DNA from: a virus | Virus record (IMG/VR): IMGVR_UViG_3300025101_000019 | Coordinates: 96,001-160,000 of that record | Reading direction: 5' to 3' (one strand) | Length of the DNA stretch: 64,000 nucleotides | Shown here: positions 15,293-44,628 of the stretch, piece by piece | Layout of the letters: each line of letters opens with the position of its first letter | How positions within the stretch are numbered: the first letter of the stretch is position 1 | Program-made: the position numbers and the translations under genes | Notes under the pieces: generated by a model | Told to the model about the DNA's origin: nothing | The model's input: the letters and a program-made list of their open reading frames with translations, nothing else | The model's database searches: none

Positions 15293-15329
15293 CCTCGAAG
15301 TCTATACTTCGCACATCAATTTTACCCAT
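15138..15329 (-). CDS. hypothetical protein, acidic then basic
   Basis: Start overlaps the end of the upstream gene. Confidence 0.5.
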   Translation of the reverse strand: MGKIDVRSIDFEDEYFETYEKITRKNRRKDIDEGDLQQSQGKSGRGRKGDSYITQRTKGRSRG

Positions 15330-15567
15330 TTTTAATTATCCTTAAATTTTCTATTTTTTTGAGAAATTGTTCAACTGAATAGTCTTTGTTTTTTTCGTCT
15401 TTGATTTTTACTTCTGTAAGTGTATCAGGGTATTTGTTAACCAGCCTTTCAAGAATTTCGAAACCTTGGTCTGTCCAAAAATTCTTAAAGGATGTTTCAC
15501 CTAAGATGTTTGTAGAATAGTCTACATCATCCTCATTATCCTCTGGTAACAATATGTAGTATATCAT
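15322..15567 (-). CDS. hypothetical protein
   Basis: ATGA-type coupling to the GT2 gene. Confidence 0.65.
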   Translation of the reverse strand: MIYYILLPEDNEDDVDYSTNILGETSFKNFWTDQGFEILERLVNKYPDTLTEVKIKDEKNKDYSVEQFLKKIENLRIIKNG

Positions 15568-26802: not shown

Positions 26803-26810
26803 AATGTGGG

Positions 26811-27434
26811 TTACACGAGGGTGTCATAATAGTCGTTTTGTTTTACTTGTTTTTCTATATCTTTGTGATGGAACAATGATAGTTCCTCAACCCAAGGTAA
26901 ATTAGAAATCGTGTCATATCCATCGAGTTTCTCGTGTACCTTATTTATCCAACGAATGGAGTCTGATTTTTTATAAACTCTCCATTGTGGGTCTGGCCAA
27001 TTTACTCGACCTTTATCATCAACCTTCCACCCCCACTTCTGAATGTACTCATCGGTTAATCCATCTACCAAATTTACTCTTGGTACAAGAATTACATCAA
27101 CACCATTCATTTCAAGGATTGCTGGAAGGTTTTCAATCAATTCATTATTAGGGATTTCATCTGCGTCAATCTGAAAGATGTAATCACCATTACATAAATC
27201 TGTTAATTTGTTTTTCCAATTTGCGAAGTGTCCATCGAACTCACCACTATGCCATGAGTAAGTTGGATTTACTGATTTTGCTCTTAGAAATTCTTCTACT
27301 TTTGTATCACCATTCTTAGAATCGTATAGAACTACGATTTCATCTTCGTCTCTGATATTGTCTAATAAGTAAGGTATTAGTTTTTGAATTTCTACCAACT
27401 CATTACAAACTGTAATTGCGTAACTTATTTTCAT
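26811..27434 (-). CDS. glycosyltransferase family 2
   Basis: ISYAITVCNE, FQIDADE, KVHEKL. Confidence 0.85.
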   Translation of the reverse strand: MKISYAITVCNELVEIQKLIPYLLDNIRDEDEIVVLYDSKNGDTKVEEFLRAKSVNPTYSWHSGEFDGHFANWKNKLTDLCNGDYIFQIDADEIPNNELIENLPAILEMNGVDVILVPRVNLVDGLTDEYIQKWGWKVDDKGRVNWPDPQWRVYKKSDSIRWINKVHEKLDGYDTISNLPWVEELSLFHHKDIEKQVKQNDYYDTLV

Positions 27435-27443
27435 ACTCTATTT

Positions 27444-27959
27444 TTATAATCCTACGGGTGGAGTATCTTGTGTGGTCTCCAAATCCGTATCGTCCTTTCG
27501 AACTTGTTCTTGTTGTCTTCGTTCTGACCTTGATGCTATTTTATCAAATACACCATAGTCATAGTTATAAACTGTTATCTGTCCTACATTCTTTTCAACC
27601 AAAGTTCTATAACCATTTTGAAGGTCTTTGTTCTTTAGTTTAGAAGTGTAGAATTGTTTAGAGTTAACTTCTACTCTCAATTTACTCAAATCTAACTTTT
27701 TAATTTGAGGAGTAGTACTTGTTACCTCATTCAAATCCTCTGCAAGTTTAGTAAACTTGTCGGGTGCACAATCTTTTAAATCTAAACAATGAAAGTAATT
27801 CTTGAATTTAGGTTGTAAGATAAAGACAAACATATCTCTCTGAGTGTTGTCTCGTTTCTTATACCTAATCTTTGCAACCATACCTCTTTCTAATTTAGTC
27901 TTAGAAACTCTTGTAGGGTCTGTTAATTTACTTCTATGTCTACTTGTAAAATCTGGCAT
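27444..27959 (-). CDS. hypothetical protein
   Basis: Basic ORF inside the island. Confidence 0.6.
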   Translation of the reverse strand: MPDFTSRHRSKLTDPTRVSKTKLERGMVAKIRYKKRDNTQRDMFVFILQPKFKNYFHCLDLKDCAPDKFTKLAEDLNEVTSTTPQIKKLDLSKLRVEVNSKQFYTSKLKNKDLQNGYRTLVEKNVGQITVYNYDYGVFDKIASRSERRQQEQVRKDDTDLETTQDTPPVGL

Positions 27960-29239
27960 TACTTTTTCTTCAATTTAGGTAGTTTCAATCCAACTTGAGT
28001 AGGACCTTCACCAACTTTATATTGTGTTAACAACTCACCTAACTTCTCTGTCATCTTATCTTGAGTAAAGTTAGTTTTTACATAATGTCTGTTTTTACGA
28101 GACATTACCACTGCTTTTTTGTAATTGTTATAAACTGTTTTTAGAACACCACCTGCTTGTTGATGGTCAATCTTGAACCATTTTGCTTGTTCAAGAATCC
28201 ATTTGTTTGCAGCTGATTTATGAACATTCTCTAATTTACCACCTACTAAAAAGTTATATTCTTTATGTAAGAAATCTACATGACCACTCCAAGCTGATGC
28301 TATAATTGGTTTACCACTAACACATGCCTCAAGTAATGGTCTACCGAATCCTTCACCATGAGTAAATGATACATGAGATTTTACTTTTGGATGATTGTAT
28401 ACTGAATTCATTTCTTCATCGGTCAAATCACCATCTAAAATATAAATATTAGGAAAGTTAGTTCCACCGATTCTATTTTTACATCTTTCGATTGTTTTTC
28501 TTAGTCGATGTATATTTGATATTGATGGTTGTCCATTATTAGTTTTTAGAACCAACGCAGGTTTAGTTTTGTTTTTAAAAGATGTTCCCTTAAATGTATT
28601 CAAAAATACTTTTACTAATGAATATATGTTTTTTCTATCTTGACCATCTGCACCTGGCAACCAATGACCCACAAATAAGAAACAAAAGTTTTCTGGTATT
28701 TTGTCAAATACTTTTTTAACAGTATTGTTTATAGGTGCTTTATTGTCAAAAACCTTTGTGTCAAATCCTTCGAATAAAACTTCAACAGGTTTTTCTAATT
28801 TCAACTCACCCATCTTTTGTTTTGTCTGGTCATTGAGTTTATCATAAACTGCCGATAAAGTTCTTGCTGAATGTTCTGACGAAACCATAGTTAAGTCCAT
28901 TCTATTACACCCATCAATAAATTCTGCAGGTGCATCTGATGTTTCGATAACTGCTGATACACCAATATTAAAATGACCTACTGGTTGAAACTCTGATGGA
29001 ATTGTCATTTGAATCCAAATATCTGGCTTCGTTTCCATTTTACGACTGATTCTTGAAGTCAAATCTGAATCATCAGGTGTCAATGCGTTGATAGGAGTTT
29101 GTCCCCATCGTTGAGACAATATTCTAATGTCCCACTCATCACCCTTTAACTGAATTAATGACCTTACGAAATCTCTACTTCTTGCACCATAACCACTTCT
29201 TGTAGCTATTGGACAACTAATTACACATACTTTTTTCAT
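27959..29239 (-). CDS. glycosyltransferase family 4
   Basis: SGYG, DRKNI, HGEGFGRPLLEA..GKPIIA. Confidence 0.9.
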   Translation of the reverse strand: MKKVCVISCPIATRSGYGARSRDFVRSLIQLKGDEWDIRILSQRWGQTPINALTPDDSDLTSRISRKMETKPDIWIQMTIPSEFQPVGHFNIGVSAVIETSDAPAEFIDGCNRMDLTMVSSEHSARTLSAVYDKLNDQTKQKMGELKLEKPVEVLFEGFDTKVFDNKAPINNTVKKVFDKIPENFCFLFVGHWLPGADGQDRKNIYSLVKVFLNTFKGTSFKNKTKPALVLKTNNGQPSISNIHRLRKTIERCKNRIGGTNFPNIYILDGDLTDEEMNSVYNHPKVKSHVSFTHGEGFGRPLLEACVSGKPIIASAWSGHVDFLHKEYNFLVGGKLENVHKSAANKWILEQAKWFKIDHQQAGGVLKTVYNNYKKAVVMSRKNRHYVKTNFTQDKMTEKLGELLTQYKVGEGPTQVGLKLPKLKKK

Positions 29240-30648
29240 ATCTTGTAAATATCAAATCTTTGTCTTGGTTTCCAATTTTCAAAACAACCATCGATTGCTT
29301 CAATAAATTTCTTACCCATTGTTTCGGCTGCCATATCACCTGCACCCATAATAAATTCATGTCCTTTCATACCTGCGGATGTACACTCATCCCTACCCTT
29401 ACTATACCATTTATCTATTGCCGAACCGATGTCTTTATAAGAACATCTATCATCAAATATATAAGGAGTAACGGGTGACCCTTGTAGTGAACGATTAGAA
29501 GGCCAGATTGGTTCAACCCATTCACCCCAAGTCAGTTCGTCTATAATTGGATTATCTTTATCGTGTAAAGAACCAATCTCAACATAATCATCTCCAGTTA
29601 AGAACTCACCATTTCTTTTAAATCCACATTGGTCTTGTAATCCACCTGTAACATTTACAATGATAGGAGTACCTGCTCGTAATGCTTCACAAGAACCCAA
29701 ACCAAACCCTTCGTTTGATGCGACATTCAATACCACATCACACGAGTTATAAAACATATTTAATCCTTCCGTACTTAGTTTTCCATCTGAAAACTTTACA
29801 TCACAATTAGTTACATTCATTTTTACCAATTCAGGAAGGTCTGTACCATTATCATCAATTGGATTTGTGTGCATGAACAATAGTACTTTTTTATTTGGAT
29901 GTTTCTTTGCAAACTCTTCTACTCCTAAAACAACATCACCTGGAACTTTTCTACGAATGTTTCTGTTACACCATCCGAGAATAAAGTCATAATCATTAAT
30001 ACCACATTCTTCTTTGTATGCTATTAAATTAGTATCTGTATCTGATAGTGGTTTGAATAAGTTAGTTACTCCATGTGGAATATACTTGAAAGACCAATCT
30101 TCTCTATCTTCACCATACCAATCCATTACTCTTTTGTTAATACCATATGTTTGTTTGGATATACCTAACAACAAGTCACAACTTGCGTAAAATGGTGCAT
30201 TCCAATGTGGGTCAGGTAATGAGTCCCATATATTGTAATACATGATTGGACAAATCTGTCTAACCTCATTTTCCATATCATACAACCATCCCCAAAATCT
30301 TGGGTCAGTAAAGTGTAGTATTGCGTCTGGTTTTTCTACATTCAATAATTCTCTTAAAACTTCAGGATTACCATAACTTGTATGGGCGTATATCTTTACA
30401 GATGCATCTTCTATGCCTGTAAGTTTTCTAACATCATCATCTAAAATGAATTGTTTACCATGGTCGGGATGTTTTAATGCAGCCCCCAATTGTACCCAAT
30501 CATATTTGTGTACTGTTGATAGTACGATTTCTTTTGATTGTGTTGCAATCCCACTATGTAATCGTAAATCATCGGAAAGTAAAAGTATCTTTGGTTTCTT
30601 AACCTTATTCTTAGATACCTTCTTTAGTTTTGGTAGTTCTATGCTCAT
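29236..30648 (-). CDS. glycosyltransferase family 4
   Basis: IPHGV, NRNIRRK, NEGFGLGSCEALRAGTPII. Confidence 0.9.
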   Translation of the reverse strand: MSIELPKLKKVSKNKVKKPKILLLSDDLRLHSGIATQSKEIVLSTVHKYDWVQLGAALKHPDHGKQFILDDDVRKLTGIEDASVKIYAHTSYGNPEVLRELLNVEKPDAILHFTDPRFWGWLYDMENEVRQICPIMYYNIWDSLPDPHWNAPFYASCDLLLGISKQTYGINKRVMDWYGEDREDWSFKYIPHGVTNLFKPLSDTDTNLIAYKEECGINDYDFILGWCNRNIRRKVPGDVVLGVEEFAKKHPNKKVLLFMHTNPIDDNGTDLPELVKMNVTNCDVKFSDGKLSTEGLNMFYNSCDVVLNVASNEGFGLGSCEALRAGTPIIVNVTGGLQDQCGFKRNGEFLTGDDYVEIGSLHDKDNPIIDELTWGEWVEPIWPSNRSLQGSPVTPYIFDDRCSYKDIGSAIDKWYSKGRDECTSAGMKGHEFIMGAGDMAAETMGKKFIEAIDGCFENWKPRQRFDIYKI

Positions 30649-32914: not shown

Positions 32915-32972
32915 CTAATATACGACAATTTGACGAGAATGCCAAATTTTTAATGTTATTAAATTGTTAAGT
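32915..32972 (-). promoter_or_regulatory. Bacteroidota-type promoter with degenerate TTAACA repeat
   Basis: TTTGG-N19-TATATTAG; TTAACA-N5-ATAACA upstream. Confidence 0.7.
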
Positions 32973-32974
32973 TT

Positions 32975-33385
32975 TTACTTAGCCCACTTCTTTCTTTGGA
33001 CTATCTGAGAGATAATTCCGTATACACTCAAGTCTTCGTAAGTGTCTTGGATATTCTCACCGACCTCATCAGGTTGCCCTAATACAACCAATTGCTTTAG
33101 TCTTTGGATTTTATCGTTTTTTCTAAACCATAACCCAACTAATGATAGTTTGATATCTTCGTCTGATTCTAAATTAGTTCCAACCGATATATTACCTGGC
33201 CCATAGTTTCTTTGTTTTTTACAAAATGTTTCATACATTTCATCTAAAATCTTTTGGAACTCTGATGTAGTTTCTGGGTATAATCTTTCACAATATTCTA
33301 CTGCGTTTTCTTCTACATTTCTTTTTTCAGTTCTCTCACCCTTCCACTCTACTTTATTTTTTCTGTCTTTTATTACTTTAGCCAT
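32975..33385 (-). CDS. nucleotide modification associated domain 1 (DUF1599/Nmad1-like)
   Basis: KKQRNYG, RKNDKIQRL, ENIQDTYEDLSVYGII. Confidence 0.7.
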   Translation of the reverse strand: MAKVIKDRKNKVEWKGERTEKRNVEENAVEYCERLYPETTSEFQKILDEMYETFCKKQRNYGPGNISVGTNLESDEDIKLSLVGLWFRKNDKIQRLKQLVVLGQPDEVGENIQDTYEDLSVYGIISQIVQRKKWAK

Positions 33386-33816
33386 TTTTTTATTTCTTTT
33401 TTATCTAACCCATATTTTAACAATATTTCAGTAATATCGTCTTTACTAAGTATTTCAAGATAGTCTCTGACTTCTCTTTGTGATACTGAGTAGTACTTTG
33501 CAAGATACTCCAACACATTGGAATTATACTTGTCATCTTTTTTACCTTTTATGTATTTGTCAAAAGACCTTTTCTTTGGTAAAAAATCAAGATACATTTT
33601 ATAAACATCTCTTGGACTGAGTTGACCAATAGTAAACTTTTGTAGCTCGTTAACCAACTCCAATAATCCCATATTCATAGACAAAAACCTATTGACCATA
33701 AATGGTTCAAAGGTTTTTTTATCCATAACTGAAAGACTATCCCAAGAAGTTTTTGACTCCTTAAGTCCAGATAGATGTTGAAATAATGTCTTAGCCTTCT
33801 TGGTTGTCGCCATCAA
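33373..33816 (-). CDS. clamp loader small subunit (gp62-like)
   Basis: FEPFMVNRFLS, LAKYYSVS..E...YL; near the large subunit. Confidence 0.7.
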   Translation of the reverse strand: MMATTKKAKTLFQHLSGLKESKTSWDSLSVMDKKTFEPFMVNRFLSMNMGLLELVNELQKFTIGQLSPRDVYKMYLDFLPKKRSFDKYIKGKKDDKYNSNVLEYLAKYYSVSQREVRDYLEILSKDDITEILLKYGLDKKEIKKWLK

Positions 33817-34081
33817 TTAGTTCTTTCGGTGTAAATTTAGGATGAACAGTTCCACAATTGTTACACAATACAACAGGTATTGGTAACATTGATGCTACAC
33901 CATTTGGTGATTGTACTGCTGGTACTTCTTTATACATTGTTACTTCGTCAAAAAATATCCCACCACACTCAGGACAACTTACTGTCTCTAATTTTCTTGG
34001 GTCAAGTTTTAATTGAGGTTGTTGTTGTGGGTTTTGTTGACCACCCAAGTTAACAACTTTACCTTTTCCTTTTTTTGCCAT
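33791..34081 (-). CDS. zinc-ribbon protein
   Basis: CPECGG...CNNCG. Confidence 0.7.
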   Translation of the reverse strand: MAKKGKGKVVNLGGQQNPQQQPQLKLDPRKLETVSCPECGGIFFDEVTMYKEVPAVQSPNGVASMLPIPVVLCNNCGTVHPKFTPKELIDGDNQEG

Positions 34082-34084
34082 AAT

Positions 34085-35005
34085 TTATTTTCCTAATGTC
34101 ATTAAAATAGTTAATACCATAGCCATCACATTGATTTCTTTATCAACTACCATGGAGTCTTTGTACTGACCCTCGGCTATATTTAAAATAGTGTGTCCGA
34201 CTTTACCATTTGCATATGAATCTACTTCATCATAAAGTGCTCTATACAATGGTGTAAAGTCTTTCACTTTTGAATCTGCAATAATTTGTCTGATTGTGTT
34301 GAACTTTGTTTTCATTTCACCACTCTCTTGTAAAACTTTTATTACATCTTCAGTATAGTTCGCCTGAATTGTAGAGGTTGTATCTATTTGTAATTCACCT
34401 TTGACAACTTGTCTTTGTGCTGAATTTAGAACTCTACGAATGTCAGGATAACCACTATTGACCAAAATTGCCAAGTCTTCTTTTTCAAACTTAACTGATT
34501 CCTCGTTTAGTATATCAAACAATCTTTTTGCCACTTCTTTTTTAGAAGGTGGTGTTATTGCGAATGTTTGACAACGAGATTGAATCGGGTCAATAATTTT
34601 CTCTACATAGTTACAAGTTAAAATGAACCTTGTAGATTTACTAAAAGTTTCCATAAGATTACGAAGTGCTGCCTGTGCATTTGGTGTCAAATAATCAGCT
34701 TCGTCTAATATGATAACTTTCCACTTTCTGAAACCCATTGATGATGCGAATCCACGAATCTTGTCACGAACTGCGTCAACTGAGTTTTCATCAGAAGCGT
34801 TAATATACATCAAATCACAATCAATCTGATTTGTGATTATCTTTGCGAGGGTAGTCTTACCAGTTCCTGCAACTCCATAGAGTAACAAGTGAGGTACATC
34901 CTCATTTTCAATGTATATTTTTACTTTGTCTAATATATGTTGATTACCAACATATCCATCTAATGTATCGGGTCTGTATTTTTCAACCCATAGTGAATTG
35001 CTCAT
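34085..35005 (-). CDS. clamp loader large subunit (gp44/RFC-like)
   Basis: LWVEKYRP, GVAGTGKTT, LDEAD, IQSRC. Confidence 0.95.
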   Translation of the reverse strand: MSNSLWVEKYRPDTLDGYVGNQHILDKVKIYIENEDVPHLLLYGVAGTGKTTLAKIITNQIDCDLMYINASDENSVDAVRDKIRGFASSMGFRKWKVIILDEADYLTPNAQAALRNLMETFSKSTRFILTCNYVEKIIDPIQSRCQTFAITPPSKKEVAKRLFDILNEESVKFEKEDLAILVNSGYPDIRRVLNSAQRQVVKGELQIDTTSTIQANYTEDVIKVLQESGEMKTKFNTIRQIIADSKVKDFTPLYRALYDEVDSYANGKVGHTILNIAEGQYKDSMVVDKEINVMAMVLTILMTLGK

Positions 35006-36192
35006 CTACCTACTTCTTTTAAATATGTTTCTTTTGCGTTTTCCCAAGTCATTCCAATAATATCCATGTAATACAATGTATCTGGTTTCAACCTATTCTC
35101 ATCATGTAACTTAGTGTATCTTCTAATAGCTTTCTTCTTCCACCATCTGATTGTGTAATCATCACCTTCTTCGAACTTCTTTTTCATCTTCAACTGACTT
35201 TCATCAATCTCGTTTCTTAGAAACTCATTACCATTATCATACATCATTGCGAAGTATACACCTCGTTTAAATCCATGTTGATATTGTGTACTTTTGATTC
35301 CCAACTCTTTGAAAATCATAGACAATATTCTTTGTTTGATACCAGATACAGGTCCTTGGATACCTTCCTTTTGGGTTGTAACTCTTTTGTATTCATCAGC
35401 ATTATGTTCTTTCATCCATTGATGCCAGATATCGTAAAATTGATTATCAGGTTTAGTAGAAACTTTACCTGTCGATTCACCTAATGTTTTGAAATGTGGT
35501 ATTCCATTATATTGTGAATGGATTCCATAAAGAGAAGTTGTACCAACTGCGATTAGAGTTTGTCCATACTTTTCTTTCCACAAATCTCTGAATGTAGGTG
35601 AAGTGGTCAATGCCGAAACAAGTTTACCACCTAAGAAGTTATATCCCAAAGGTTGTGTTGCGATGATAGATGTACCAATTGTAGTATGATTCAACTTACC
35701 ATCTTTAAACTTGTTTTCTTTATCCCACCCAATGTATTTATCACGAACACCTAAAGATGTTACATCAGAACCAAGTGATATTACACCAAGTACTTTACCA
35801 CTTTTTCGGTCTTTAGCAAATGCTTTTATATTACGACCTGGATTAGCAGTAAACTCCATTGATGAAATACACTTTCGGATGTCAGTCCACTTTGCAGTCC
35901 CTGCAGAATCTACGATTAAGTCTACATAAGGTTCTAACTCTTCAATTTCTTTAATAGTCTGTTCCTTGTTGTAGATGTCAGTTGGAGTCCAAATCATATC
36001 ATAAGACTTTGCAAGACTTGGTTTTCTTGCCATAGACTTAGGTAGGTCTGAGTTCCACTCCTGCCACTTTTTATAAAGAGTTTGTTCCTCAACTGGCATA
36101 CTTGATAGGTATTCCATATTGTCGATGAATCGTTTTCTCTCTACATCATAGTCAAAGACTGGTGCCGCTGGTTCTGTGTCCCAAAATTGCAT
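35002..36192 (-). CDS. DUF4338 (DruA-like domain) protein
   Basis: RDKYIGW, QPLGYNFLGGKL, TTSLYG..SQYN, LGESTG. Confidence 0.7.
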   Translation of the reverse strand: MQFWDTEPAAPVFDYDVERKRFIDNMEYLSSMPVEEQTLYKKWQEWNSDLPKSMARKPSLAKSYDMIWTPTDIYNKEQTIKEIEELEPYVDLIVDSAGTAKWTDIRKCISSMEFTANPGRNIKAFAKDRKSGKVLGVISLGSDVTSLGVRDKYIGWDKENKFKDGKLNHTTIGTSIIATQPLGYNFLGGKLVSALTTSPTFRDLWKEKYGQTLIAVGTTSLYGIHSQYNGIPHFKTLGESTGKVSTKPDNQFYDIWHQWMKEHNADEYKRVTTQKEGIQGPVSGIKQRILSMIFKELGIKSTQYQHGFKRGVYFAMMYDNGNEFLRNEIDESQLKMKKKFEEGDDYTIRWWKKKAIRRYTKLHDENRLKPDTLYYMDIIGMTWENAKETYLKEVGR

Positions 36193-36887
36193 TACTTAAT
36201 CTCCACTAAATAATAGTTAGACTTAAATCCATCATTTTCAAATGAAACATGAGCTAATCCATTTGGTGAAATCTTCAATGAAGATGATTTTGCACCCTTG
36301 TTAGCATTAAGGATTTCCTTTAAGTACTTAGCTGAGAATGATATTGGTTCTACATCACCATCACACTCACATTCTACATTGATTGAGATTCTGTTAGAGT
36401 TAATCTTTGAATAACCTAAGATTACTTCACCTTTGTTACTTTTACAACTAAATGTAAATGTATCTGAATCAGATAATGCACCTTTAGACTTTACGAATTT
36501 GTTTACGAAGTCATTGTCCATTTTGATAGTAGATGTAAAATCAGGTAATTGTTTCAAATCTGGAACAACAGGTATTACAGAAAGGTCAGCCAACATATAG
36601 TTTACTGAAGTACCTTTATCTGAGAACACAAGTGCTGCGTCACCTTCTTTTACACTAATATCTGAATCTAATACAGATAATAGTCCTTTTAATTGAGATG
36701 TAGTGTAAACACCATACTCTCCATTTGGAAAGTCTTTGTTATCACTACTTACATTTCCTAATAGGGTCTTATCATCAGAAATGAATTTTACTGACAACCC
36801 TGCATCTGTTGAATCAATCTTTACTGATTCTACCTCACCACCCAAATTATATCGAGTAATGAACCCTTCAAACGAGCTTTTTTTCAT
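36192..36887 (-). CDS. DNA sliding clamp (gp45/PCNA-like)
   Basis: About 230 aa, FSAKYLKEIL, YYLV end; lies between loader and polymerase. Confidence 0.75.
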   Translation of the reverse strand: MKKSSFEGFITRYNLGGEVESVKIDSTDAGLSVKFISDDKTLLGNVSSDNKDFPNGEYGVYTTSQLKGLLSVLDSDISVKEGDAALVFSDKGTSVNYMLADLSVIPVVPDLKQLPDFTSTIKMDNDFVNKFVKSKGALSDSDTFTFSCKSNKGEVILGYSKINSNRISINVECECDGDVEPISFSAKYLKEILNANKGAKSSSLKISPNGLAHVSFENDGFKSNYYLVEIK

Positions 36888-36919
36888 AATTTACTTTTTA
36901 CTATTGATTTATTATTATA

Positions 36920-36951
36920 CTAATATACGAAATTTATTTTTAAAATCCAAA
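36920..36951 (-). promoter_or_regulatory. Bacteroidota-type promoter for the clamp/loader genes
   Basis: TTTGG-N19-TATATTAG. Confidence 0.7.
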
Positions 36952-37554
36952 CCATTTTAACATTTTTAATCGTCTTTTTTTGAAATGGTATATATAAATG
37001 TTTTTTGGTTTGGTCTTTTCATACTTTGCTTTACCATTTTCAAGTGCTTTTCTAATCTCTAACGCAAATGGTTTAAACTTACCATTATGTTTAGTTCTAA
37101 TCGTTTTATCGTGATATCTAAATCCATTATACATAATAACACGACCTGGTTGAGTTTCACCTTTAAATTCAAAGTTTGTAGCTTTGTAAACCACACCCTC
37201 GTGTCCAAATGATTTATCTGCATATGATATAATCATATCTAAATCGGTGTTTCTCTGTAACCATCTAAGAGTCGAACCTATAAAGTAAGACTCTGTATTT
37301 TTAGGTGTATCATCTACACAAACTAATCTTTTTAATTCTAATATTTTATCAGGATTATTTGTATACTTTTGTTCTACTCCACCCATTCCAATCTTACCAT
37401 ATACAATTGCCCCAATCATATTGTTACCATCCATTAACTTAAAACAATATGAAGTTTTTAATCCATTCATATTTTTAGAGTAATGGTATTTTTCAATAAA
37501 ATCAACTACTTGACTTCTTGGACACTTTTCAACTATGTAATTTGTTACACTCAT
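36940..37554 (-). CDS. Mom-like GNAT DNA-modification protein (paralogue 1)
   Basis: YHYS, GAIVYG, LELKRL, TESYFIG, ISYAD..GHEGVVYKATNF. Confidence 0.8.
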   Translation of the reverse strand: MSVTNYIVEKCPRSQVVDFIEKYHYSKNMNGLKTSYCFKLMDGNNMIGAIVYGKIGMGGVEQKYTNNPDKILELKRLVCVDDTPKNTESYFIGSTLRWLQRNTDLDMIISYADKSFGHEGVVYKATNFEFKGETQPGRVIMYNGFRYHDKTIRTKHNGKFKPFALEIRKALENGKAKYEKTKPKNIYIYHFKKRRLKMLKWFGF

Positions 37555-40070
37555 TAAAATCCAAAAAATTCTGAAGCTTTATTTAGATTTGGATTTGGTT
37601 TCTCCCAATCCATAGCTTTATAGAAGTCATCAAGTTTATTTTCTAACTCCTTTTCCCAAATTTTATCGTAGTCAATATATTGTTCTACAAGATTTAAAAT
37701 CTGAGGTGGGTCATTGTGACCTTTTAGTCCTGTCGTATCTAATCCGAGAGGATTCTTTTTCAAATATACCCACTTAATCTTATCACCATCTTTCATTGGT
37801 TCGTACTTGTATGGTACTTTATAGAAAGCAAGTAATTGATTATATGTTATTGCTGCCTTAACATGCGCAGGTGACCCCTTTTGGAATTCACCTAATACTT
37901 GTGTCTTTGTTGTATACTTACTCATACCTTTGACCGCTGAGTTCTTTGCGATATCAATGAATGGTCGGTCTTCCATACCTTTTTTGTAATCAAGAATCTT
38001 AGTATCAATCTCCTTTTTATCAACCGACCTTAGAATATCTAACAAAACAGTCTTCATAACTTCCTTAAAATATGTTGGGAATGAACTTCTTTTTACATCC
38101 AATCCTTTCACATCTAACTTATCACAATCAACTTCATTATCATTGATAATCCATTGTGCGTATCTTTTCTTTGATACCCAAAACCCACCCTTTGCAATCG
38201 TTTCTTGTTTAATATCAAATTTATGTGTATCGATGTTAAATAACTTTTTTGCCATCGTATCATAAACTTTGTTGATATGACCTTCGACTTCTTTTGCTGC
38301 GGATATAATCGCAGGAATCATTTCTTCATCCGACTCTTCATTAAGTTGTGGATTCCTAGCTTTTACTAACGGCGCTGCTTGATAAAAAACAGAATCAGTA
38401 TCGGTATAAACATTGTAGTCATCTTCTTTTCCTATTACTTTTGAATAATATTGATTTGCAATCAACTCAGTTGTTTTAATTACAGTTTGACCTGTAATTG
38501 TAGTTGCTTCTGCGTTATCCACATCGTAGAATCTGAATGATGGTAATCCCAACACCCCATACAATGAGTTTAACATAATCTTTTGTACTAATTGTCGTTT
38601 ACCATAAAACTTGTATTGTTCGTCATTACCTTCTTTACCATACTTTTTCATCAAGTCTTTGTATTCAACTCGTTTGTCAAACCAAACACTTAGTATTTCA
38701 GGTATAACTCCAACTTTATCTGTTCTATATAAAACACCATTTGCAGCAACAGAGTATCTATTCTTTTCAATAAACTTTAGAAATTTATCTTTAGGTAGTG
38801 GTGGAAACTCATTACCCTCATCATCCAAAATAGAGTAAGTATCAATCTTACCTCTCATATGGTCTTCTGCTACATAATTCTTAAGTTTACCAATCTTAGT
38901 TTCAGGTGAGATATTGATACTCATAATGATTGATGGATATAGTGATGTTAAATCCAAATCATAAACCCATTTGTAAAGACCAGGTTTTGGTTCTTTTACA
39001 TATGCGCCTGTAAACTTCCCTTCACCATCAGACCCATCTGCGTTTCGTTTCTTTCTCCATGGTTTATTGGGTGCTACCCTACCACTCCTTCTAAGGAATG
39101 TAAGAATAGCTCCCTCTAACCATTTAGATGAAAACAGAAAGTCTTCGTAGAACACATGACCTGTATGACATATTGCCCTTGCTAAGTCAATGAATTGTAA
39201 TTTCTTATCCAAGTCAACTACCAACTCAACATCAACTAAGTTATACTCAATAAACTTTTCAATATCATCTCTGAATAGTTGGTCTAAGTTTCCTTCATAC
39301 TCAATCTTACCTCGACCTAACTCAATTGTTGCAACAGTATCTAATCGATAGTTGGGTAGTTCTGTAAAGTTATAACACTTATATAAAGCGAGATAATCTA
39401 ATGCAGATACTCCTGCAATAATATATCTGTTTCTGTACTTGTTGTATGATACTTTACCAATTGGTGATAATTGATTTGCATATTGTTGACCGAATAGTAG
39501 TTTATATCTATTGTAAAGATATGTAACATCAAAGAAATCAATATTCCACCCCGTTACAATAGTTGGATTTATCTCTCTCCACTTGGACATAAACGCTGAT
39601 AATAATCCCTCTTCAGTATCAAATGATTCTACCTTTGCACCTTTGATTGTTTTATCAATCTTTTCACCTTTGTTAACTACATAGACAAAATAGTCATTTG
39701 TAATTGAGTCATGTGCTGCGATTGAAGTAATTGCGTTACTTGCAGTTTCAATATCAGGCAACCCACTATTCATTTCAACCTCAATATCAAATGTTAGAAT
39801 TGTATGTCCTGTTGATAGTTCGTCTGAATCACCATACTCATCAATTAGAAACCTCGTCATTTCATTAACATCAGACTCATATAATTTTAAGTCATCATCT
39901 TGTTTCCAATAATTTAATTTCTTAAGTCGTTCACCATGAATGGATTGATGTGCTCCATTACCATCTCTTACATAGGCGTACCTACGATACTTAGATGTAA
40001 AGTAACCTTTTTCATCATCCCAACAATGGATGATAGACTTTTCTTTTTCGAAGAATACATTTTGATACAT
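37554..40070 (-). CDS. DNA polymerase family B (gp43-like)
   Basis: FDIE, GWNIDFFD, YNLVD exonuclease motifs; DLTSLYPS, KIMLNSLYG, YTDTDS. Confidence 0.97.
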   Translation of the reverse strand: MYQNVFFEKEKSIIHCWDDEKGYFTSKYRRYAYVRDGNGAHQSIHGERLKKLNYWKQDDDLKLYESDVNEMTRFLIDEYGDSDELSTGHTILTFDIEVEMNSGLPDIETASNAITSIAAHDSITNDYFVYVVNKGEKIDKTIKGAKVESFDTEEGLLSAFMSKWREINPTIVTGWNIDFFDVTYLYNRYKLLFGQQYANQLSPIGKVSYNKYRNRYIIAGVSALDYLALYKCYNFTELPNYRLDTVATIELGRGKIEYEGNLDQLFRDDIEKFIEYNLVDVELVVDLDKKLQFIDLARAICHTGHVFYEDFLFSSKWLEGAILTFLRRSGRVAPNKPWRKKRNADGSDGEGKFTGAYVKEPKPGLYKWVYDLDLTSLYPSIIMSINISPETKIGKLKNYVAEDHMRGKIDTYSILDDEGNEFPPLPKDKFLKFIEKNRYSVAANGVLYRTDKVGVIPEILSVWFDKRVEYKDLMKKYGKEGNDEQYKFYGKRQLVQKIMLNSLYGVLGLPSFRFYDVDNAEATTITGQTVIKTTELIANQYYSKVIGKEDDYNVYTDTDSVFYQAAPLVKARNPQLNEESDEEMIPAIISAAKEVEGHINKVYDTMAKKLFNIDTHKFDIKQETIAKGGFWVSKKRYAQWIINDNEVDCDKLDVKGLDVKRSSFPTYFKEVMKTVLLDILRSVDKKEIDTKILDYKKGMEDRPFIDIAKNSAVKGMSKYTTKTQVLGEFQKGSPAHVKAAITYNQLLAFYKVPYKYEPMKDGDKIKWVYLKKNPLGLDTTGLKGHNDPPQILNLVEQYIDYDKIWEKELENKLDDFYKAMDWEKPNPNLNKASEFFGF

Positions 40071-40074
40071 ATGT

Positions 40075-40106
40075 TAAATATACGAAATTATTTTGACTTT
40101 ACCAAA
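40075..40106 (-). promoter_or_regulatory. Bacteroidota-type promoter abutting the polB start
   Basis: TTTGG-N19-TATATTTA, 4 nt before ATG. Confidence 0.7.
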
Positions 40107-40887
40107 AGTTAACTGCGTTTTCTGGCGTATAAGTTTCATGTTTTTCAATAGGTGGTAAAAACTCCTCAGGGTCTTTTGGATACGGACTTGTTTTATGTTT
40201 TAACATCTTACTAAGTTTTCGTTTCTCAGATTTGTTTTGACCTAAGATTTGAATGTACCTATGTTTAGGTGCTTCTTTCTTTCGCCAAAAACATGATTTG
40301 TTTTGTTTACCTATTTCTGTTTTTAAGTGTTCTACATTATGTGAACCCCATTTTGAGAATACAGTTCTCGAATGAATCCAATTGTAAGGATTTTCAGTTA
40401 GTGATACTGAATAGTTTGGCATTAGTTGTATATCACGACAATCTTGATATAACCAATTAGTTGCTTGGTAAATGCCACCGAGGTGTAATTGTTCAGGGTC
40501 TGCGTAACTCAATAACATCTTAATATTTGGTGCATTTTCTCTCATCCATTTAAAAGACTGACCCATTGAGTATGATTCTACATTTGAACCATATCCATCG
40601 TGTATAAACAATCTTGTCAATTCTAAACACTCATCTTTTTCTAAACCATCAATTACAGACTTAATCGCTGAACGACCTACGGGATATCCATATACCAAAC
40701 AACCAATTAGTTTTTCACTACCAAAAAACTCACCATCACCTTTGTAATACACACCAAGTGCGTATCTACACATTGTCCATGCGTGAGAGTAGTGATACTT
40801 CACTATCATATGTTTTGCAACACTTTTATTGATTTCTCTGATTGAAACCTTTGAGGCGTCTACATAATGTTTATTAGGTTCTTTCAA
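40099..40887 (-). CDS. Mom-like GNAT DNA-modification protein (paralogue 2)
   Basis: YHYS, LELTRL, VESYSMG, LSYADP..HLGGIYQATNW. Confidence 0.8.
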   Translation of the reverse strand: MKEPNKHYVDASKVSIREINKSVAKHMIVKYHYSHAWTMCRYALGVYYKGDGEFFGSEKLIGCLVYGYPVGRSAIKSVIDGLEKDECLELTRLFIHDGYGSNVESYSMGQSFKWMRENAPNIKMLLSYADPEQLHLGGIYQATNWLYQDCRDIQLMPNYSVSLTENPYNWIHSRTVFSKWGSHNVEHLKTEIGKQNKSCFWRKKEAPKHRYIQILGQNKSEKRKLSKMLKHKTSPYPKDPEEFLPPIEKHETYTPENAVNFW

Positions 40888-41626
40888 TTGGTTCTAATTT
40901 TTTTATTTCTTCTTCAAATAACTCACCCTGTTTAGGATATGGTAGTGAAGGATATTTTAAACTCTTTAATATACGACTTTTTTTTGACTTATCCAAAATA
41001 TAAATGTATCGATGCTTTCTTGGTTCTTTTTTAATCCAAAAAGTTTTACCAATTACCTTTTGTATTTTGGTGGGGTTATTAGTTCCATAATATGGAAATA
41101 TTGTTCTACCATGTTGCCACTCCCCATTTTCTTCAAACTTAAATAACCAACTATCATTTGGTCTTATTCTATTTCCTTGGTATACCCAATTAGTTGACTG
41201 ATATACAGTTCCTAAATGACCTGCTTTGGGGTCTGAGTATGAAATTAATCCTTTGATGTGTTTTGCGTAGGTTCTTAACCACTTAAATGTTTGACCTACA
41301 AACCAACTTTCAATGTTACATCCGTATCCATCAAATACAAATAATCTTGTAAGTTCTAATACTTCTTTTCTATCCAATAACTCTGATATTGATTGCCCAG
41401 AGTGTCTTCCGATTGGGTCACCATATGTTGCAACACCGATTAACTTATCTGTCGATGAAAAGAAAGAGTGTGAGTTATCCTCAATATACAATCCCAAACA
41501 ATAACTAACCTTTGTCCATATACCACTATAATGGTTTTTTATGATAATGTCCTTTGCTACTGATTTTGAGATAGGTCTTACGGATAACTTTGAAATATCT
41601 GTATACTCTTTCCCTTTAATTTTCAT
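40874..41626 (-). CDS. Mom-like GNAT DNA-modification protein (paralogue 3)
   Basis: NHYS, LELTRL, IESWFVG, ISYSDP..GHLGTVYQSTNWVYQG. Confidence 0.8.
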   Translation of the reverse strand: MKIKGKEYTDISKLSVRPISKSVAKDIIIKNHYSGIWTKVSYCLGLYIEDNSHSFFSSTDKLIGVATYGDPIGRHSGQSISELLDRKEVLELTRLFVFDGYGCNIESWFVGQTFKWLRTYAKHIKGLISYSDPKAGHLGTVYQSTNWVYQGNRIRPNDSWLFKFEENGEWQHGRTIFPYYGTNNPTKIQKVIGKTFWIKKEPRKHRYIYILDKSKKSRILKSLKYPSLPYPKQGELFEEEIKKLEPIERT

Positions 41627-41826
41627 TGATACTCGTTAAACTCACCAAATAGTAAGTGTTTCCAAGTTTCACCTCTAACAATTTTTCTTATGTTAGCAGG
41701 TGATACTCCATTGTTTCTTGCCAATACTCTAATATTACGATGACCCACTTGCCATAATTTACGAATAGACCTTACTTGTCTTTCCGTTAATTTATGTTGT
41801 GGATGTAATTCACCTCTTAATGCCAT
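41623..41826 (-). CDS. stand-alone HTH protein resembling the C-terminal DNA-binding domain of HNH endonucleases
   Basis: GELHPQHKLTERQVRSIR..LARNNGVSPANIRKIVRGETWKHL; ATG at 41826. Confidence 0.7.
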   Translation of the reverse strand: MALRGELHPQHKLTERQVRSIRKLWQVGHRNIRVLARNNGVSPANIRKIVRGETWKHLLFGEFNEYQ

Positions 41827-41840
41827 TCTAAATCTTTTCA

Positions 41841-41872
41841 CTAATATACGAAATTTATTTTAATTTTCCAAA
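41841..41872 (-). promoter_or_regulatory. Bacteroidota-type promoter for the HTH-Mom-Mom unit
   Basis: TTTGG-N19-TATATTAG. Confidence 0.7.
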
Positions 41873-42417
41873 ATTATATCACCACTTTTTAATCCACTTG
41901 GTTCGATATCCCATAGATTAATTGCTATTGCGTGTCTTGTACCACGAGTAACTTTAGTAACTCTATGTGGATGGGCGCCTGCAGGGAATATAACCAGTCT
42001 ATTATACTTTGGTTCTAATCTTTCAGGTTCACCATCTTGACCATGTGGATATATTTCAAGATAACCACCATCAATATCATTTTCCCAAGGATAGTAAACT
42101 GTTCCAATTATTGGTGTAATAATTTCGTTTGTTCTCCAGTAATGTGCTTCGTCTTTGTCAAAATGGAATGGTAGTTCATCCTTTTCTTCAAACTCCGAGT
42201 AAATGCCTGTCCAATATTCGAATCCTGTAACACTTAATGGTTCGTATGGTGAGTTCTCACCCCAAATGTATTCTATCAACCTTTTTTTAAGTGTATCGGT
42301 AGGTGAATTCCACCAACCATCCCACCACATATAACTTTTATCATTAAAAAATGTGGTGTCATTCTTTAAATCATTCAATAGACTTTCGTCTTTTATAAAA
42401 TCATCTATTACTATCAT
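41860..42417 (-). CDS. 2OG-Fe(II) oxygenase (prolyl-hydroxylase-like)
   Basis: HFDKD, GGYLEI, PKYNRLVIF..HRV, RHAIAIN. Confidence 0.85.
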   Translation of the reverse strand: MIVIDDFIKDESLLNDLKNDTTFFNDKSYMWWDGWWNSPTDTLKKRLIEYIWGENSPYEPLSVTGFEYWTGIYSEFEEKDELPFHFDKDEAHYWRTNEIITPIIGTVYYPWENDIDGGYLEIYPHGQDGEPERLEPKYNRLVIFPAGAHPHRVTKVTRGTRHAIAINLWDIEPSGLKSGDIILEN

Positions 42418-43505
42418 AAACTTTCTACTTTCTTAAGTGCGGATGCGATTACTTGATGCATATCATAGTATTTGTACTCTGCCAACCTACCACCAAATAT
42501 TACTTTATCTTGACCATCCGCAAGTTTTTTATATTTGTTATACATCTCATTGTTAATTTTATCATTTACAGGATAATATGGTTCTACCCCTCTTTCGTAA
42601 AGTTGTGGATATTCCCAACTAACATAAGTTCCTTTTTGATTCTGATTATCAAAATGTTTATGTTCTATGGTTCGAGTATAAGGTGTTTCTGAATCCGTAT
42701 AGTTCATTAATGCACATCCTTGATAATTATCTTTTGATTTATACATTTTATGCATCCAATGTAAAGACTTGTATTCTAAGTCACCATATTTGTAATCGAA
42801 GTACTTATCAATCGGACCTGTATAAATTACTTTATTACCCATATCATCCCAAAAGTCTTTTTTATCAAAATAATCCGTTTCTGTAAATACTTCAATACCT
42901 TCTAATAGTCTTTCAAATATCTGAGTGTATCCACCGATTGGTATTCCTTGATATTTGTCATTGAAGTAATTGTTATTATATGTGTATCTTACAGGCAATC
43001 TTTTGATAATTGACTTTGGTAACAACTTAGCTGGCTTCATCCATTGTTTTTGGGTGTAACCTTTTATTAACTTTTCGTAAATGTCGTCACCAACAAGTGC
43101 TTTCGCCTGTTCTTCTAAATTAGTTGGAGTATCCTTAAATCTTTGTGATTCAATCCTTTGTTTTGCTCCTTCGGGTGTCGTTACACCCCACATTTTGTTG
43201 AATGTATACATATTGAAAGGTAACGGATATATTTCACCCTTATAGTTTGCAACTATATTCAATTGGAATTGATGAAAATCTACAAACTGATTTATCCAAT
43301 GCCAAACCTTATCATTATTTGTATGAAATATATGTGGTCCATATTTGTGTACATGAATACCTTCTATTTCTTCGGTATAACAATTACCACCGATGTGGTC
43401 TCGTTTTTCTAATACAAGAACCTTTTTACCTTTTTCTCTAAGTTCGTATGCACATACTGCACCAAAGAATCCAGAACCTACAATAATGTAATCGTATTTA
43501 GCCAT
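42414..43505 (-). CDS. glf: UDP-galactopyranose mutase
   Basis: VGSGFFG, IGGNCY, HKYGPHIFHT, YFNDKYQGIP, GRLAEYKYYDM. Confidence 0.95.
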   Translation of the reverse strand: MAKYDYIIVGSGFFGAVCAYELREKGKKVLVLEKRDHIGGNCYTEEIEGIHVHKYGPHIFHTNNDKVWHWINQFVDFHQFQLNIVANYKGEIYPLPFNMYTFNKMWGVTTPEGAKQRIESQRFKDTPTNLEEQAKALVGDDIYEKLIKGYTQKQWMKPAKLLPKSIIKRLPVRYTYNNNYFNDKYQGIPIGGYTQIFERLLEGIEVFTETDYFDKKDFWDDMGNKVIYTGPIDKYFDYKYGDLEYKSLHWMHKMYKSKDNYQGCALMNYTDSETPYTRTIEHKHFDNQNQKGTYVSWEYPQLYERGVEPYYPVNDKINNEMYNKYKKLADGQDKVIFGGRLAEYKYYDMHQVIASALKKVESL

Positions 43506-44628
43506 TCAATCCTCTTAATGCTTTAGTATGAAGTTCTTTTGGATATTCACTTGTATCGTAATATGCGGTATCCTCTATTATAAACTGAAGATTTGGGAAT
43601 GGGTTTTTTCTGTTTAAATCTACTAACATTTTAGTACATTGTAATGCTTTACTAAAGTGTTTTCGTTCCAAGTATATTTCTGCCAATCTGGCGTATGATT
43701 CATTTCTGTCGTGACAAAACTCAACACTTTTATTCAACCACTCTATTTGTTTATCAATTTGACCCATCCACCTGTATGCAGCTGCTATTCCACAACAACA
43801 CCAATAAGAAAATTCATCTTTTGTAGATGATACTAAATTATTCTCTTTGTACTCTGGATTTACTTTATAAAGATATTGTTCAAAATAAAATATACATCGT
43901 CTTGCAAACTCTTTCCTATGGTCTTCACCAAATGGAAAATTATCACCAAGTGTATCGTGATAGGATTTTGCTATGTAGAATAAATGATAATTATCCTCTA
44001 AGACTTTATTGTTTGGGACTACATCAAGTTCTAAGTTTAATGCATCTTTTAAAAACTTCATTGGTTGTAACCAAGTTTGTCCATCGTTAGTTAGAATGTG
44101 TCTAAACTTTTTGTCTAATGGTACTCGTTGAAATCCTTCACCAACATCATCTCTATCTAAATAAATTGTCTCATGCGCTTTTTCTGGGTAGAATGCCCAT
44201 GGTTCTTTTGCATTCCATAACCAAGTTCTAAAATACTTTACACCTGGCCCTTGACATGGTACATTGAAACTCTGAATGGATGTATCGTTAAATACAGACC
44301 AATCAAAATCATCATCCACTTGTAATTGTTCGTCTGCATCAACTCTAAGTATCCAATCACACCCATGGTCTGCACTTAATGCAGTTTTTATACAATGGTC
44401 TCTGTTTATTCCATGACCCTTCCACCAATCTAATTGATATAAGAAACCAGGTATTCCTTTAGCTTCAAAGAAGTTCTTAATTATATCTTGTGTTCCATCA
44501 GTTGAACCATTATCTTGAATAACCCAATAGTCGATATACTCGTAAACACTCTCTAACATCCTTGTGATGACATGAGCTTCGTTATTTACCATTGTGTTAA
44601 AACAAAACTTTGCAGTAGTGTTTTTCAT
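43498..44628 (-). CDS. glycosyltransferase family 2 with TPR-like C-terminus
   Basis: VNNEAHVI, DNGSTDGT, VDADE, HE; helical repeats. Confidence 0.85.
   Translation of the reverse strand: MKNTTAKFCFNTMVNNEAHVITRMLESVYEYIDYWVIQDNGSTDGTQDIIKNFFEAKGIPGFLYQLDWWKGHGINRDHCIKTALSADHGCDWILRVDADEQLQVDDDFDWSVFNDTSIQSFNVPCQGPGVKYFRTWLWNAKEPWAFYPEKAHETIYLDRDDVGEGFQRVPLDKKFRHILTNDGQTWLQPMKFLKDALNLELDVVPNNKVLEDNYHLFYIAKSYHDTLGDNFPFGEDHRKEFARRCIFYFEQYLYKVNPEYKENNLVSSTKDEFSYWCCCGIAAAYRWMGQIDKQIEWLNKSVEFCHDRNESYARLAEIYLERKHFSKALQCTKMLVDLNRKNPFPNLQFIIEDTAYYDTSEYPKELHTKALRGLNG

What the first reader, a model, noticed from the sequence alone, without database searches (positions are those of the whole stretch)
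32975..41826. Three Mom-like enzymes, a DUF4338 protein and Nmad1 interleaved with the replisome: candidate multi-enzyme DNA hypermodification system
Seen: gene order HTH, Mom3, Mom2, PolB, Mom1, clamp, DUF4338, clamp loader, Zn-ribbon, loader small subunit, Nmad1. All three paralogues keep HYS, ELxRL, ES, SY[AS]D and H.G..Y.[AS]TN[WF]. Known: phage Mu uses a single GNAT-fold Mom to make N6-(1-acetamido)adenine, which blocks restriction; Nmad1 is named for its association with base-modification loci. Inference: three divergent, intact paralogues plus a DUF4338 protein inside the core replication operon suggest several co-replicative modifications with different sequence contexts, bases or acyl/aminoacyl donors.
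Basis: partly seen in the sequence, partly recalled or inferred. Interest (0 to 1): 0.85.

Follow-up and report, generated by a model that had tools for sequence, protein, structure and literature searches.

The report
Mom-type DNA modifiers beside phage polymerase
An uncultured marine phage keeps four enzymes related to a known DNA-decorating enzyme (Mu Mom) among its DNA-copying genes; two of them are gained and lost together across relatives and probably decorate new DNA in a way not yet described, but no chemistry has been shown.

Summary
Observation confirmed: gene order and motifs are exact. All three paralogues pass Pfam Mom, match the Mu Mom structure (E 1e-23) and keep H58/Y59/R111/S124/D149/Y159, but none keeps the essential R151. 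The DUF4338 protein folds as a GNAT closest to Mom (Z 10) yet lacks R111/D149 equivalents. The 'system' is smaller than proposed. Mom2 and DUF4338 are the core: 18 relatives carry both and 7 neither, with at least 5 switches on the PolB tree; other DNA modifiers (TAGT, methylase-like, ABC-GNAT) take their slots. Mom3 is optional. Mom1 is a 614-bp presence/absence insert missing from 99%-identical phages. Nmad1 does not follow the module. Mom2, DUF4338 and PolB carry terminal Phe-Trp/Phe-Phe tags, and the clamp is PCNA-like; modelled binding got weak support only. Some tags overlap a promoter box, which discounts Mom1's. The genome has zero GATC and ACGT sites, so protection is partial. Multi-Mom phages are published, and this scan found the same module on other genomes. 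Most likely a context-limited, replication-coupled base acylation pathway; donors and products unknown. New variant of a known kind.

The parts
41843..41872 (-). Promoter-like motif (TTTGG, ~18 nt, GTATATT) upstream of HTH-Mom3
   Evidence: 21 copies on the coding strand of the genome vs 0-1 in Markov controls; resembles the Bacteroidota -33/-7 promoter
41623..41841 (-). Small HTH protein heading the Mom3 unit; role unknown
   Evidence: PHROG HTH E 3e-5; a divergent allele (45-50% identity) travels with the methylase-like cassette
40874..41626 (-). Mom3 (MomC), Mom-family GNAT, optional partner, no terminal aromatic tag, Lys at the R151 position
   Evidence: PF25680 153 bits; in 13 of 18 Mom2 carriers and 0 of 7 loci without Mom2; residues
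40968..40997 (-). Promoter-like motif inside the 3' end of Mom3, upstream of Mom2
   Evidence: motif upstream of Mom2 in only 11 of 82 relatives
40099..40887 (-). Mom2 (MomB), core Mom-family GNAT with a 24-residue tail ending Phe-Trp
   Evidence: PF25680 161 bits; F261 and W262 invariant in 23 diverse homologues; co-occurs with DUF4338 18/18
40077..40106 (-). Promoter-like motif for polB; its upstream box overlaps the Phe-Trp codons of Mom2 in this genome
37554..40070 (-). Family B DNA polymerase with a C-terminal Phe-Phe (PIP-box-like) tail
   Evidence: Pfam; terminal aromatic pair in 99% of 78 homologues
36940..37554 (-). Mom1 (MomA), divergent short Mom; 614-bp presence/absence insert bounded by a 12-bp direct repeat
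   Evidence: PF25680 119 bits; absent in L081-L085 and L154, present at 74-76% in L182-L198; both alleles in public runs; GC 28.6% vs 32-35% in neighbours
36922..36951 (-). Promoter-like motif for clamp-DUF4338-loader-Nmad1; overlaps the last codons of Mom1 (or of PolB when Mom1 is absent)
   Evidence: motif upstream of the clamp in 56 of 101 relatives
36192..36887 (-). Sliding clamp, PCNA fold
   Evidence: model pLDDT 94; Foldseek to PCNA E 4e-13, TM 0.75; PHROG processivity factor
35002..36192 (-). DUF4338/DruA-like protein: fourth Mom-fold GNAT with an altered active site and a disordered N-terminal Phe-Trp tag
   Evidence: PF14236; model pLDDT 89, residues 1-9 disordered; best match 8bv8_B Z 10.0, rmsd 4.1, 173 aligned; tag in 119 of 120 homologues
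34085..35005 (-). Clamp loader large subunit
   Evidence: AAA and Gp44_lid
33791..34081 (-). Zn-ribbon protein, core gene of the region
   Evidence: weak Pfam Zn-ribbon hits; present in all allele types
33373..33816 (-). Clamp loader small subunit
   Evidence: PF16790, PHROG 225
32975..33385 (-). Nmad1/DUF1599-like protein; conserved neighbour, not part of the Mom module
   Evidence: present in all 12 checked loci that lack Mom and DUF4338

Best explanation
A swappable DNA-modification cassette built into the replication genes of a T4-like marine phage, probably of a Bacteroidota host. Its core is Mom2 plus the DUF4338 GNAT; Mom3 is a common accessory and Mom1 a mobile extra. Likely mechanism: (1) the genes are transcribed from the same promoter class as polB and the clamp, so they are made during replication [motif shown, timing inferred]; (2) Mom2 and DUF4338 dock on the phage's PCNA-like clamp through terminal Phe-Trp tags, as PolB does through its Phe-Phe tail [conservation shown, binding inferred, about 50%]; (3) the Mom enzymes move an aminoacyl group from a host charged tRNA onto an exocyclic amine, most likely adenine N6, each in its own sequence context [family knowledge plus conserved residues; donor and context untested]; (4) DUF4338, which lacks Mom's catalytic Arg and Asp but keeps a Gly-rich loop at the GNAT motif A position, does a second, different acylation in the same pathway, and in most relatives a GT-B enzyme adds a further step that this lineage lacks [inferred]; (5) the result is partial protection from host nucleases, complemented by removal of some restriction sites [site loss shown].
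For: Mom identity and catalytic residues: (H58, Y59, R111, S124 and Y159 equivalents kept in every full-length Mom1/Mom2/Mom3-clade row; D149 is Asn in 10 of 58 Mom2 rows). HTH-like insertion present, 32-36 residues between anchors. DUF4338 folds closest to Mu Mom; small DruA-like relatives keep Mom motifs and bridge the two. Mom2 and DUF4338 lie on opposite sides of polB-clamp, yet 18 dereplicated loci have both and 7 neither; starred branches of the PolB tree force at least 5 switches. The slots are then filled by TAGT, DNA-methylase-like, GT-B or ABC-GNAT genes. Purifying selection. Tags: terminal aromatic pair in Mom2 89%, DUF4338 89%, PolB 99%, against 0-1% for most neighbouring families and 16 of 190 genes genome-wide. 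The Mom2 tag persists in 43 of 56 distinct ends with no promoter box in register, and the DUF4338 tag in 59 of 59. Clamp x3 + Mom2 tail: weak support, score 0.52, best control 0.00; the mark was reached by 58 of 80 solved and 2 of 110 mismatched pairs, but at 0.60 or under by only 7 solved pairs and both mismatches; contacts agree at least 33%, partner pLDDT at least 45; many PCNA-peptide complexes are solved, so the pass may reflect likeness. Precedent: T4 alpha-glucosyltransferase co-purifies with gp45 (PMC13216743); T4 PIP boxes occur at both protein ends (PMC3012046).
Against: No chemistry shown. R151, essential in Mu Mom, is Lys, Glu and Ser here, and the dimer residue W48 is Ser. Mu Mom acts after replication and needs no partner (PMC13219725; PMC7261163). 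The genome has no GATC and no ACGT in 173 kb (expected about 660 and 240 sites), and GATC is depleted in relatives of every allele type, so those contexts are not being protected. In this genome the Mom2, Mom1 and PolB tags all overlap a promoter box. In T4 the clamp link did not explain modification levels. More distant phages carry a Mom2-like gene with no DUF4338 in the flanks, or the reverse. The tree is a quick one and Fisher's p (2e-6) ignores relatedness.
Confidence: 0.62

Rival explanations
1. Independent Mu-like enzymes: each Mom makes ordinary 6-NcmdA from Gly-tRNA in a different sequence context, unrelated to the clamp and to DUF4338. They sit by polB only to share its promoters.
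For: Six Mu catalytic residues kept; Mu Mom works alone (PMC13219725); multi-Mom phages known; Mom1 comes and goes as a single gene; Mom3 has no tag.
Against: Does not explain the 18/18 versus 0/7 joint presence of Mom2 and DUF4338 across at least 5 switches, nor tags kept without promoter overlap.
Confidence: 0.22
2. The terminal aromatic pairs are by-products of a promoter box (TTTGG reads as Phe-Trp or Phe-Gly in frame), not docking tags. This concerns only the tethering step.
For: In this genome the ends of Mom2, Mom1 and (in Mom1-less relatives) PolB overlap the box; all 5 close Mom1 homologues end on the clamp promoter, and distant Mom1 homologues in other slots have no tag.
Against: Mom2 keeps the pair where a separate promoter lies further downstream; DUF4338 and GT-B carry it at the N-terminus with almost no promoter in register; PolB keeps Phe-Phe with codons that break the box. 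It probably does explain Mom1's tail.
Confidence: 0.2
3. Some of these GNATs, DUF4338 above all, acylate proteins or tRNA (replisome tuning or host takeover) rather than DNA.
For: DUF4338 lacks the R111 and D149 equivalents; ordinary protein and small-molecule GNATs score only 1.1 Z below Mom; a clamp tag would suit a replisome-protein modifier too.
Against: Its slot is filled in relatives by DNA glycosyltransferase and methylase-like genes; it tracks Mom2; best fold match is Mom.
Confidence: 0.12
4. The DUF4338 gene is a captured Druantia component used as a defence island or as a decoy against host Druantia.
For: PADLOC DruA E 7e-22.
Against: No MZB/DUF1998 (DruE-type) match in the genome, with the control ringing in 8 of 14; fixed position beside the clamp here and between gp44 and gp62 in cyanophage S-SM2; co-variation with Mom2.
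Confidence: 0.04

Closest known systems
Phage Mu Mom (PF25680; PDB 8BV8; PMC13219725)
   Same: GNAT fold, HTH-like insertion, H58/Y59/R111/S124/D149/Y159; profile match E 1e-23 over the whole chain.
   Different: Three paralogues of 30-48% identity plus a fourth Mom-fold protein; R151 and W48 not kept; C-terminal extensions of 18-24 residues; placed among replication genes under the polB/clamp promoter class, whereas Mu mom is single, late and post-replicative.
Multi-Mom jumbo phages, e.g. vB_PaeM_PA5oct (five Mom enzymes; PMC7824862)
   Same: More than one Mom per genome.
   Different: Those Mom domains are described as typically fused to restriction-fold nucleases; here they stand alone, flank polB and co-vary with a DruA-like GNAT. 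I found no paper pairing Mom with DUF4338 (open library only).
T4 alpha-glucosyltransferase with the gp45 clamp (PMC13216743)
   Same: A phage DNA modifier linked to the sliding clamp; modifier genes among replication genes.
   Different: Different chemistry; no shared short tag described for it in the passages read; there the link is shown by pull-down, here only modelled.
Druantia type I DruA (PF14236)
   Same: DUF4338 domain.
   Different: No DruE-type helicase match in the genome; phage replisome context; N-terminal tag.
PIP-box clients of PCNA and gp45 (consensus Qxxhxxaa; PMC3012046)
   Same: Terminal aromatic pair in a flexible end; PCNA-fold clamp; PolB tail fits the RB69 pattern.
   Different: The Mom2 and DUF4338 tags are truncated (no conserved Gln; the DUF4338 tag has only two residues before it).

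Membership tests
Mom family (PF25680) | Profile match above the curated cut-off | tested here: met
   119-161 bits vs 27.1 for all three
Mom family (PF25680) | Catalytic H58, Y59, R111, S124, D149, Y159 | tested here: met
   mapped through the 8BV8 alignment and counted in 163 rows
Mu Mom activity type | R151, essential in Mu Mom | tested here: not met
   Lys (Mom3), Glu (Mom2), Ser (Mom1); no Arg in any local homologue. Whether active mined homologues keep it could not be read (supplement not held)
Mu Mom activity type | HTH-like insertion needed for activity | tested here: met
   region aligns; 32-36 residues between anchors
Mu Mom activity type | W48 dimer contact | tested here: not met
   Ser in all three
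Mu Mom activity type | Gly-tRNA donor, adenine N6 target, 6-NcmdA product | not testable with these tools
   needs biochemistry; the genome encodes no tRNA-Gly, which says nothing as Mu uses host tRNA
Mom family, for the DUF4338 protein | GNAT fold nearest to Mom | tested here: met
   Z 10.0, rmsd 4.1, 173 aligned; next GNAT 8.9
Mom family, for the DUF4338 protein | R111 and D149 equivalents; Mom profile match | tested here: not met
   no PF25680 hit; direct profile comparison fails; no Arg in strand 4 and Thr/Ser in strand 5, by alignment through small DruA-like proteins, not by superposition
Druantia type I | DruA (DUF4338) | tested here: met
Druantia type I | DruE helicase with DUF1998/MZB | tested here: not met
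   no match in a 95%-complete genome; control rings in 8 of 14
Druantia type I | DruB, DruC, DruD beside DruA | tested here: inconclusive
   five neighbours scanned had no PADLOC hit; the other flanking genes are replisome genes; whole genome not scanned
PIP-box clamp clients | PCNA/gp45-type clamp | tested here: met
PIP-box clamp clients | Conserved aromatic pair in a flexible terminus, independent of DNA-level constraint | tested here: met
   Mom2, DUF4338, PolB; not for Mom3; confounded for Mom1
PIP-box clamp clients | Binding in the clamp pocket | tested here: inconclusive
   weak support 0.52 vs best control 0.00, no contacts given
Nmad1 (PF07659) | Profile match above cut-off | tested here: inconclusive
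   20 bits vs 25; Atlas features 0.96 to DUF1599 clusters

The most novel reading that the evidence does not exclude
Mom2 and the DruA-like GNAT form a two-step, clamp-tethered pathway that installs a nucleoside not yet described (for example a non-glycine aminoacyl adduct, or an aminoacyl adduct further acylated, and glycosylated in relatives with the GT-B gene) on DNA as it is copied. The clamp would act as a tool belt for exchangeable modifier cassettes across a large group of aquatic phages, and this would give DUF4338/DruA its first biochemical function.
Probability: 0.3. Interest if true: 0.87.

Novelty: new variant of a known kind. Interest (0 to 1): 0.6.

Why it matters
Mom was only recently shown to use charged tRNA to modify DNA, and its thousands of homologues are nearly all untested. 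This locus offers three old, selected paralogues with different residues at an essential position, plus a partner whose function is unknown in both phages and the Druantia defence system. The co-variation points to a definite pair to express (Mom2 + DUF4338), natural knock-outs exist (with or without Mom1, Mom3, GT-B), and cultured phages carry the DUF4338 homologue (S-SM2, HTVC008M), so virion DNA can be analysed. A new nucleoside or clamp-coupled modification would extend phage counter-defence chemistry and could give new DNA-labelling enzymes.

Tried and rejected
Direct profile comparison of DUF4338 with Mom2 gave nothing (probability 0.9%); Foldseek gave only weak GNAT rows (best E 6.5e-3; Mom E 0.05). 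Searches of the genome for TET/JBP (control silent, so uninformative), N6/N4, C5 and Dam methylases (none; controls rang) and the GT-B partner (none). Phage tRNAs (Glu, Ala, Leu, Met, Arg) give no clue to donors. Palindrome avoidance did not separate Mom-type from other cassette types; loss of ACGT does not track loss of GT-B. The TTT bias in the tag codons (39/39) is uninformative: internal Phe-Trp pairs are 94% TTT. The 614-nt skip in an RNA run is not splicing: DNA contigs hold the same joined form. RNA-run contigs do not show expression. Nmad1 as a module member: rejected. A Mom2-Mom3 heterodimer was considered (Mom3 occurs only with Mom2, has no tag, and has Lys at R151) but not tested. 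Iyer 2013 and 2009 were not held under the ids tried, and the Mom paper's supplement was not held. The nearest cultured phage (Mel-JY01, PolB 48%) has no annotated Mom beside polB and no paper in the library.
Full report
Setting. The window lies in a 173-kb IMG/VR virus record, 95% complete, 34% GC, nearly all genes on one strand. Runs that hold it are mostly marine. The nearest cultured phage by PolB is Microcystis phage Mel-JY01 at 48%. A promoter-like motif (TTTGG, about 18 nt, GTATATT) occurs 21 times on the coding strand against 0-1 in controls. It resembles the Bacteroidota -33/-7 consensus, and only 9 of 118 genes have a Shine-Dalgarno-like site. A Bacteroidota host is my inference.

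The observation. Gene order, coordinates and motifs are as reported. All three paralogues pass Pfam Mom by a wide margin and, as a profile, match only Mu Mom (8BV8) in the PDB, E 1e-23. Mapping the residues tested in Mu Mom, H58, Y59, R111, S124, D149 and Y159 are kept in all three. R151, whose loss abolishes Mu Mom activity, is Lys, Glu and Ser, and the dimer residue W48 is Ser. The three belong to three separate lineages, each spread over divergent phages, all under purifying selection. The Nmad1 call is probably right but below Pfam's cut-off.

The DUF4338 protein. Its model is confident (pLDDT 89). Among 48,161 solved chains the best match is Mu Mom (Z 10.0, rmsd 4.1, 173 residues), ahead of other GNATs at 8.9. 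Shorter DruA-like proteins found in the same slots of relatives keep recognisable Mom motifs and link the two families. The large protein has no Arg in strand 4 and no Asp after strand 5, but has an invariant Gly-Gly-Lys-Leu loop where GNAT motif A lies. So it is a fourth Mom-fold acyltransferase with a different active site. It is not a Druantia system: no DruE-type domain is in the genome.

What travels together. I anchored 80 loci on PolB so as not to select for Mom. After dereplication, 18 have both Mom2 and DUF4338 and 7 have neither; no locus has one alone. Starred branches of a quick PolB tree force at least five switches. The two genes lie on opposite sides of polB-clamp, so simple hitch-hiking is unlikely. 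Where they are missing, the slots hold a TET-associated glycosyltransferase plus an ABC-GNAT (L099), a GT-B plus a methyltransferase (L086), or two DNA-methylase-like genes with PLP-enzyme, asparagine-synthase or thymidylate-synthase-like neighbours (L104, L105, L147). These are DNA-modification slots. Mom3 is in 13 of the 18; a GT-B gene is in 15 of the 18 but not in this genome. Nmad1 is in every cassette type. In more distant phages the pairing loosens.

Mom1 is an extra. It is absent from phages with 95-99% identical PolB and present at about 75% in a more distant group. It is bounded by a 12-bp direct repeat; removing it restores polB directly before the clamp promoter. Both alleles occur in public runs. 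Its lower GC and its absence in the nearest relatives favour recent gain, though repeated loss at the repeat is not excluded.

Tags and the clamp. The clamp has the PCNA fold. PolB, Mom2 and Mom1 end, and DUF4338 begins, with an aromatic pair; 16 of 190 genes do so genome-wide, and several replacement enzymes carry one too. The Mom2 pair persists in 43 of 56 distinct ends with no second box in register, the DUF4338 pair has none in 59, and PolB keeps Phe-Phe with codons that break the box. These three look selected as protein. Mom1's tail always lies on the clamp promoter and may be a by-product. A model of the clamp trimer with the Mom2 tail gave weak support: 0.52 against a best control of 0.00, contacts agreeing at least 33%, partner pLDDT at least 45; at that level 7 of 80 solved pairs and both passing mismatches scored, and likeness to solved PCNA-peptide complexes may explain it. 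T4 offers precedent for a clamp-binding DNA modifier and for PIP boxes at either end. The same promoter class precedes HTH-Mom3, Mom2, polB and the clamp unit, which fits expression during replication, unlike late Mu mom.

Limits of protection. The genome holds no GATC and no ACGT, and depletes CTAG, CATG and several asymmetric sites. GATC is depleted in all cassette types. Whatever is installed does not make site avoidance unnecessary; context-limited modification, as in Mu, fits.

Mechanism and rivals. Best reading (0.62): a context-limited base-acylation pathway with Mom2 and DUF4338 as core, aminoacyl-tRNA as the likely Mom donor, acting on new DNA and probably held on the clamp. Shown: identity, residues, co-variation, slot replacement, tag conservation, promoter motif, site loss. 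Inferred: donors, target base, the DUF4338 step, tethering, timing. Rivals: independent Mu-like enzymes (0.22), tags as promoter by-products (0.2, tethering only), protein or tRNA acylation (0.12), Druantia decoy (0.04).

Novelty. Mom chemistry and multi-Mom phages are published. I found no paper pairing Mom with DUF4338 (open library only). This scan has reported the same module and tags on other genomes; those notes are unchecked leads and add no support.

Noticed in passing
whole genome G000:C1 (window included): Zero GATC and zero ACGT in 173 kb; strong depletion of CTAG, CATG, CACTG, ACAGC, CCTCC, CGACG, CACGG. Points to a host with many restriction systems; ACGT loss is specific to this lineage and a few others.
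   Followed up: partly
window 41843-41872, 40968-40997, 40077-40106, 36922-36951, 32917-32946 and 7 more in the window: Conserved promoter-like motif resembling the Bacteroidota -33/-7 promoter; with scarce Shine-Dalgarno sites it hints at the host phylum.
   Followed up: partly
L104, L105, L123, L125, L126, L147, L156-L160: An alternative cassette (two DNA-methylase-like genes, PLP enzyme, sometimes asparagine-synthase and thymidylate-synthase-like genes) comes with its own clamp allele (237 aa, 55-58% identity) and its own HTH allele while PolB stays 76-80% identical in most: the clamp appears to be exchanged together with the modifier.
   Followed up: partly
L099:8788-9969 and 13276-14529; L086:12542-13165 and 13919-15409: Other cassette types: ABC-ATPase-GNAT with TAGT; methyltransferase with a 496-aa GT-B-like protein. 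Three of these four end in an aromatic pair.
   Followed up: partly
L137:2525-3118, L194:4063-4782, L043:9037-9768: Small (190-240 aa) DruA-like proteins in the Mom slots keep Mom-like His-Ser-Tyr, Arg and Tyr motifs and bridge DUF4338 to Mom; L224/L225 carry two large DUF4338 genes in tandem.
   Followed up: partly
L238:5707-6765 (S-SM2), L237:6920-8062 (HTVC008M): Cultured cyanophages and pelagiphages carry the DUF4338 homologue, in S-SM2 between gp44 and gp62; they lack the N-terminal Phe-Trp tag. Their virion DNA can be tested.
   Followed up: partly
L050-L080: A more distant phage group has a Mom2-like and a Mom1-like gene at other positions of the clamp-loader block, with no DUF4338 in the flanks; its Mom2-like proteins end near Phe-Tyr or a single Trp.
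   Followed up: no
window 25033-30648 and 41860-44628: Sugar-pathway genes: cytidylyltransferase-HMGL fusion, two GT4-like enzymes (one with a GT4-conflict hit), 2OG oxygenase, a UDP-galactopyranose-mutase-like gene (named from motifs only) and a GT2-TPR protein. The GT4 pair is conserved in all cassette types.
   Followed up: no
G000:C1:84801-86201 (outside the window): A distant homologue (23%) of the 415-450-aa protein that lies between Mom2 and GT-B in many relatives is present elsewhere in this genome.
   Followed up: no
G000:C1:1-600 (outside the window): The first 50 bases of the contig recur 540 nt further on: a repeat inside a low-complexity gene at the contig start.
   Followed up: no
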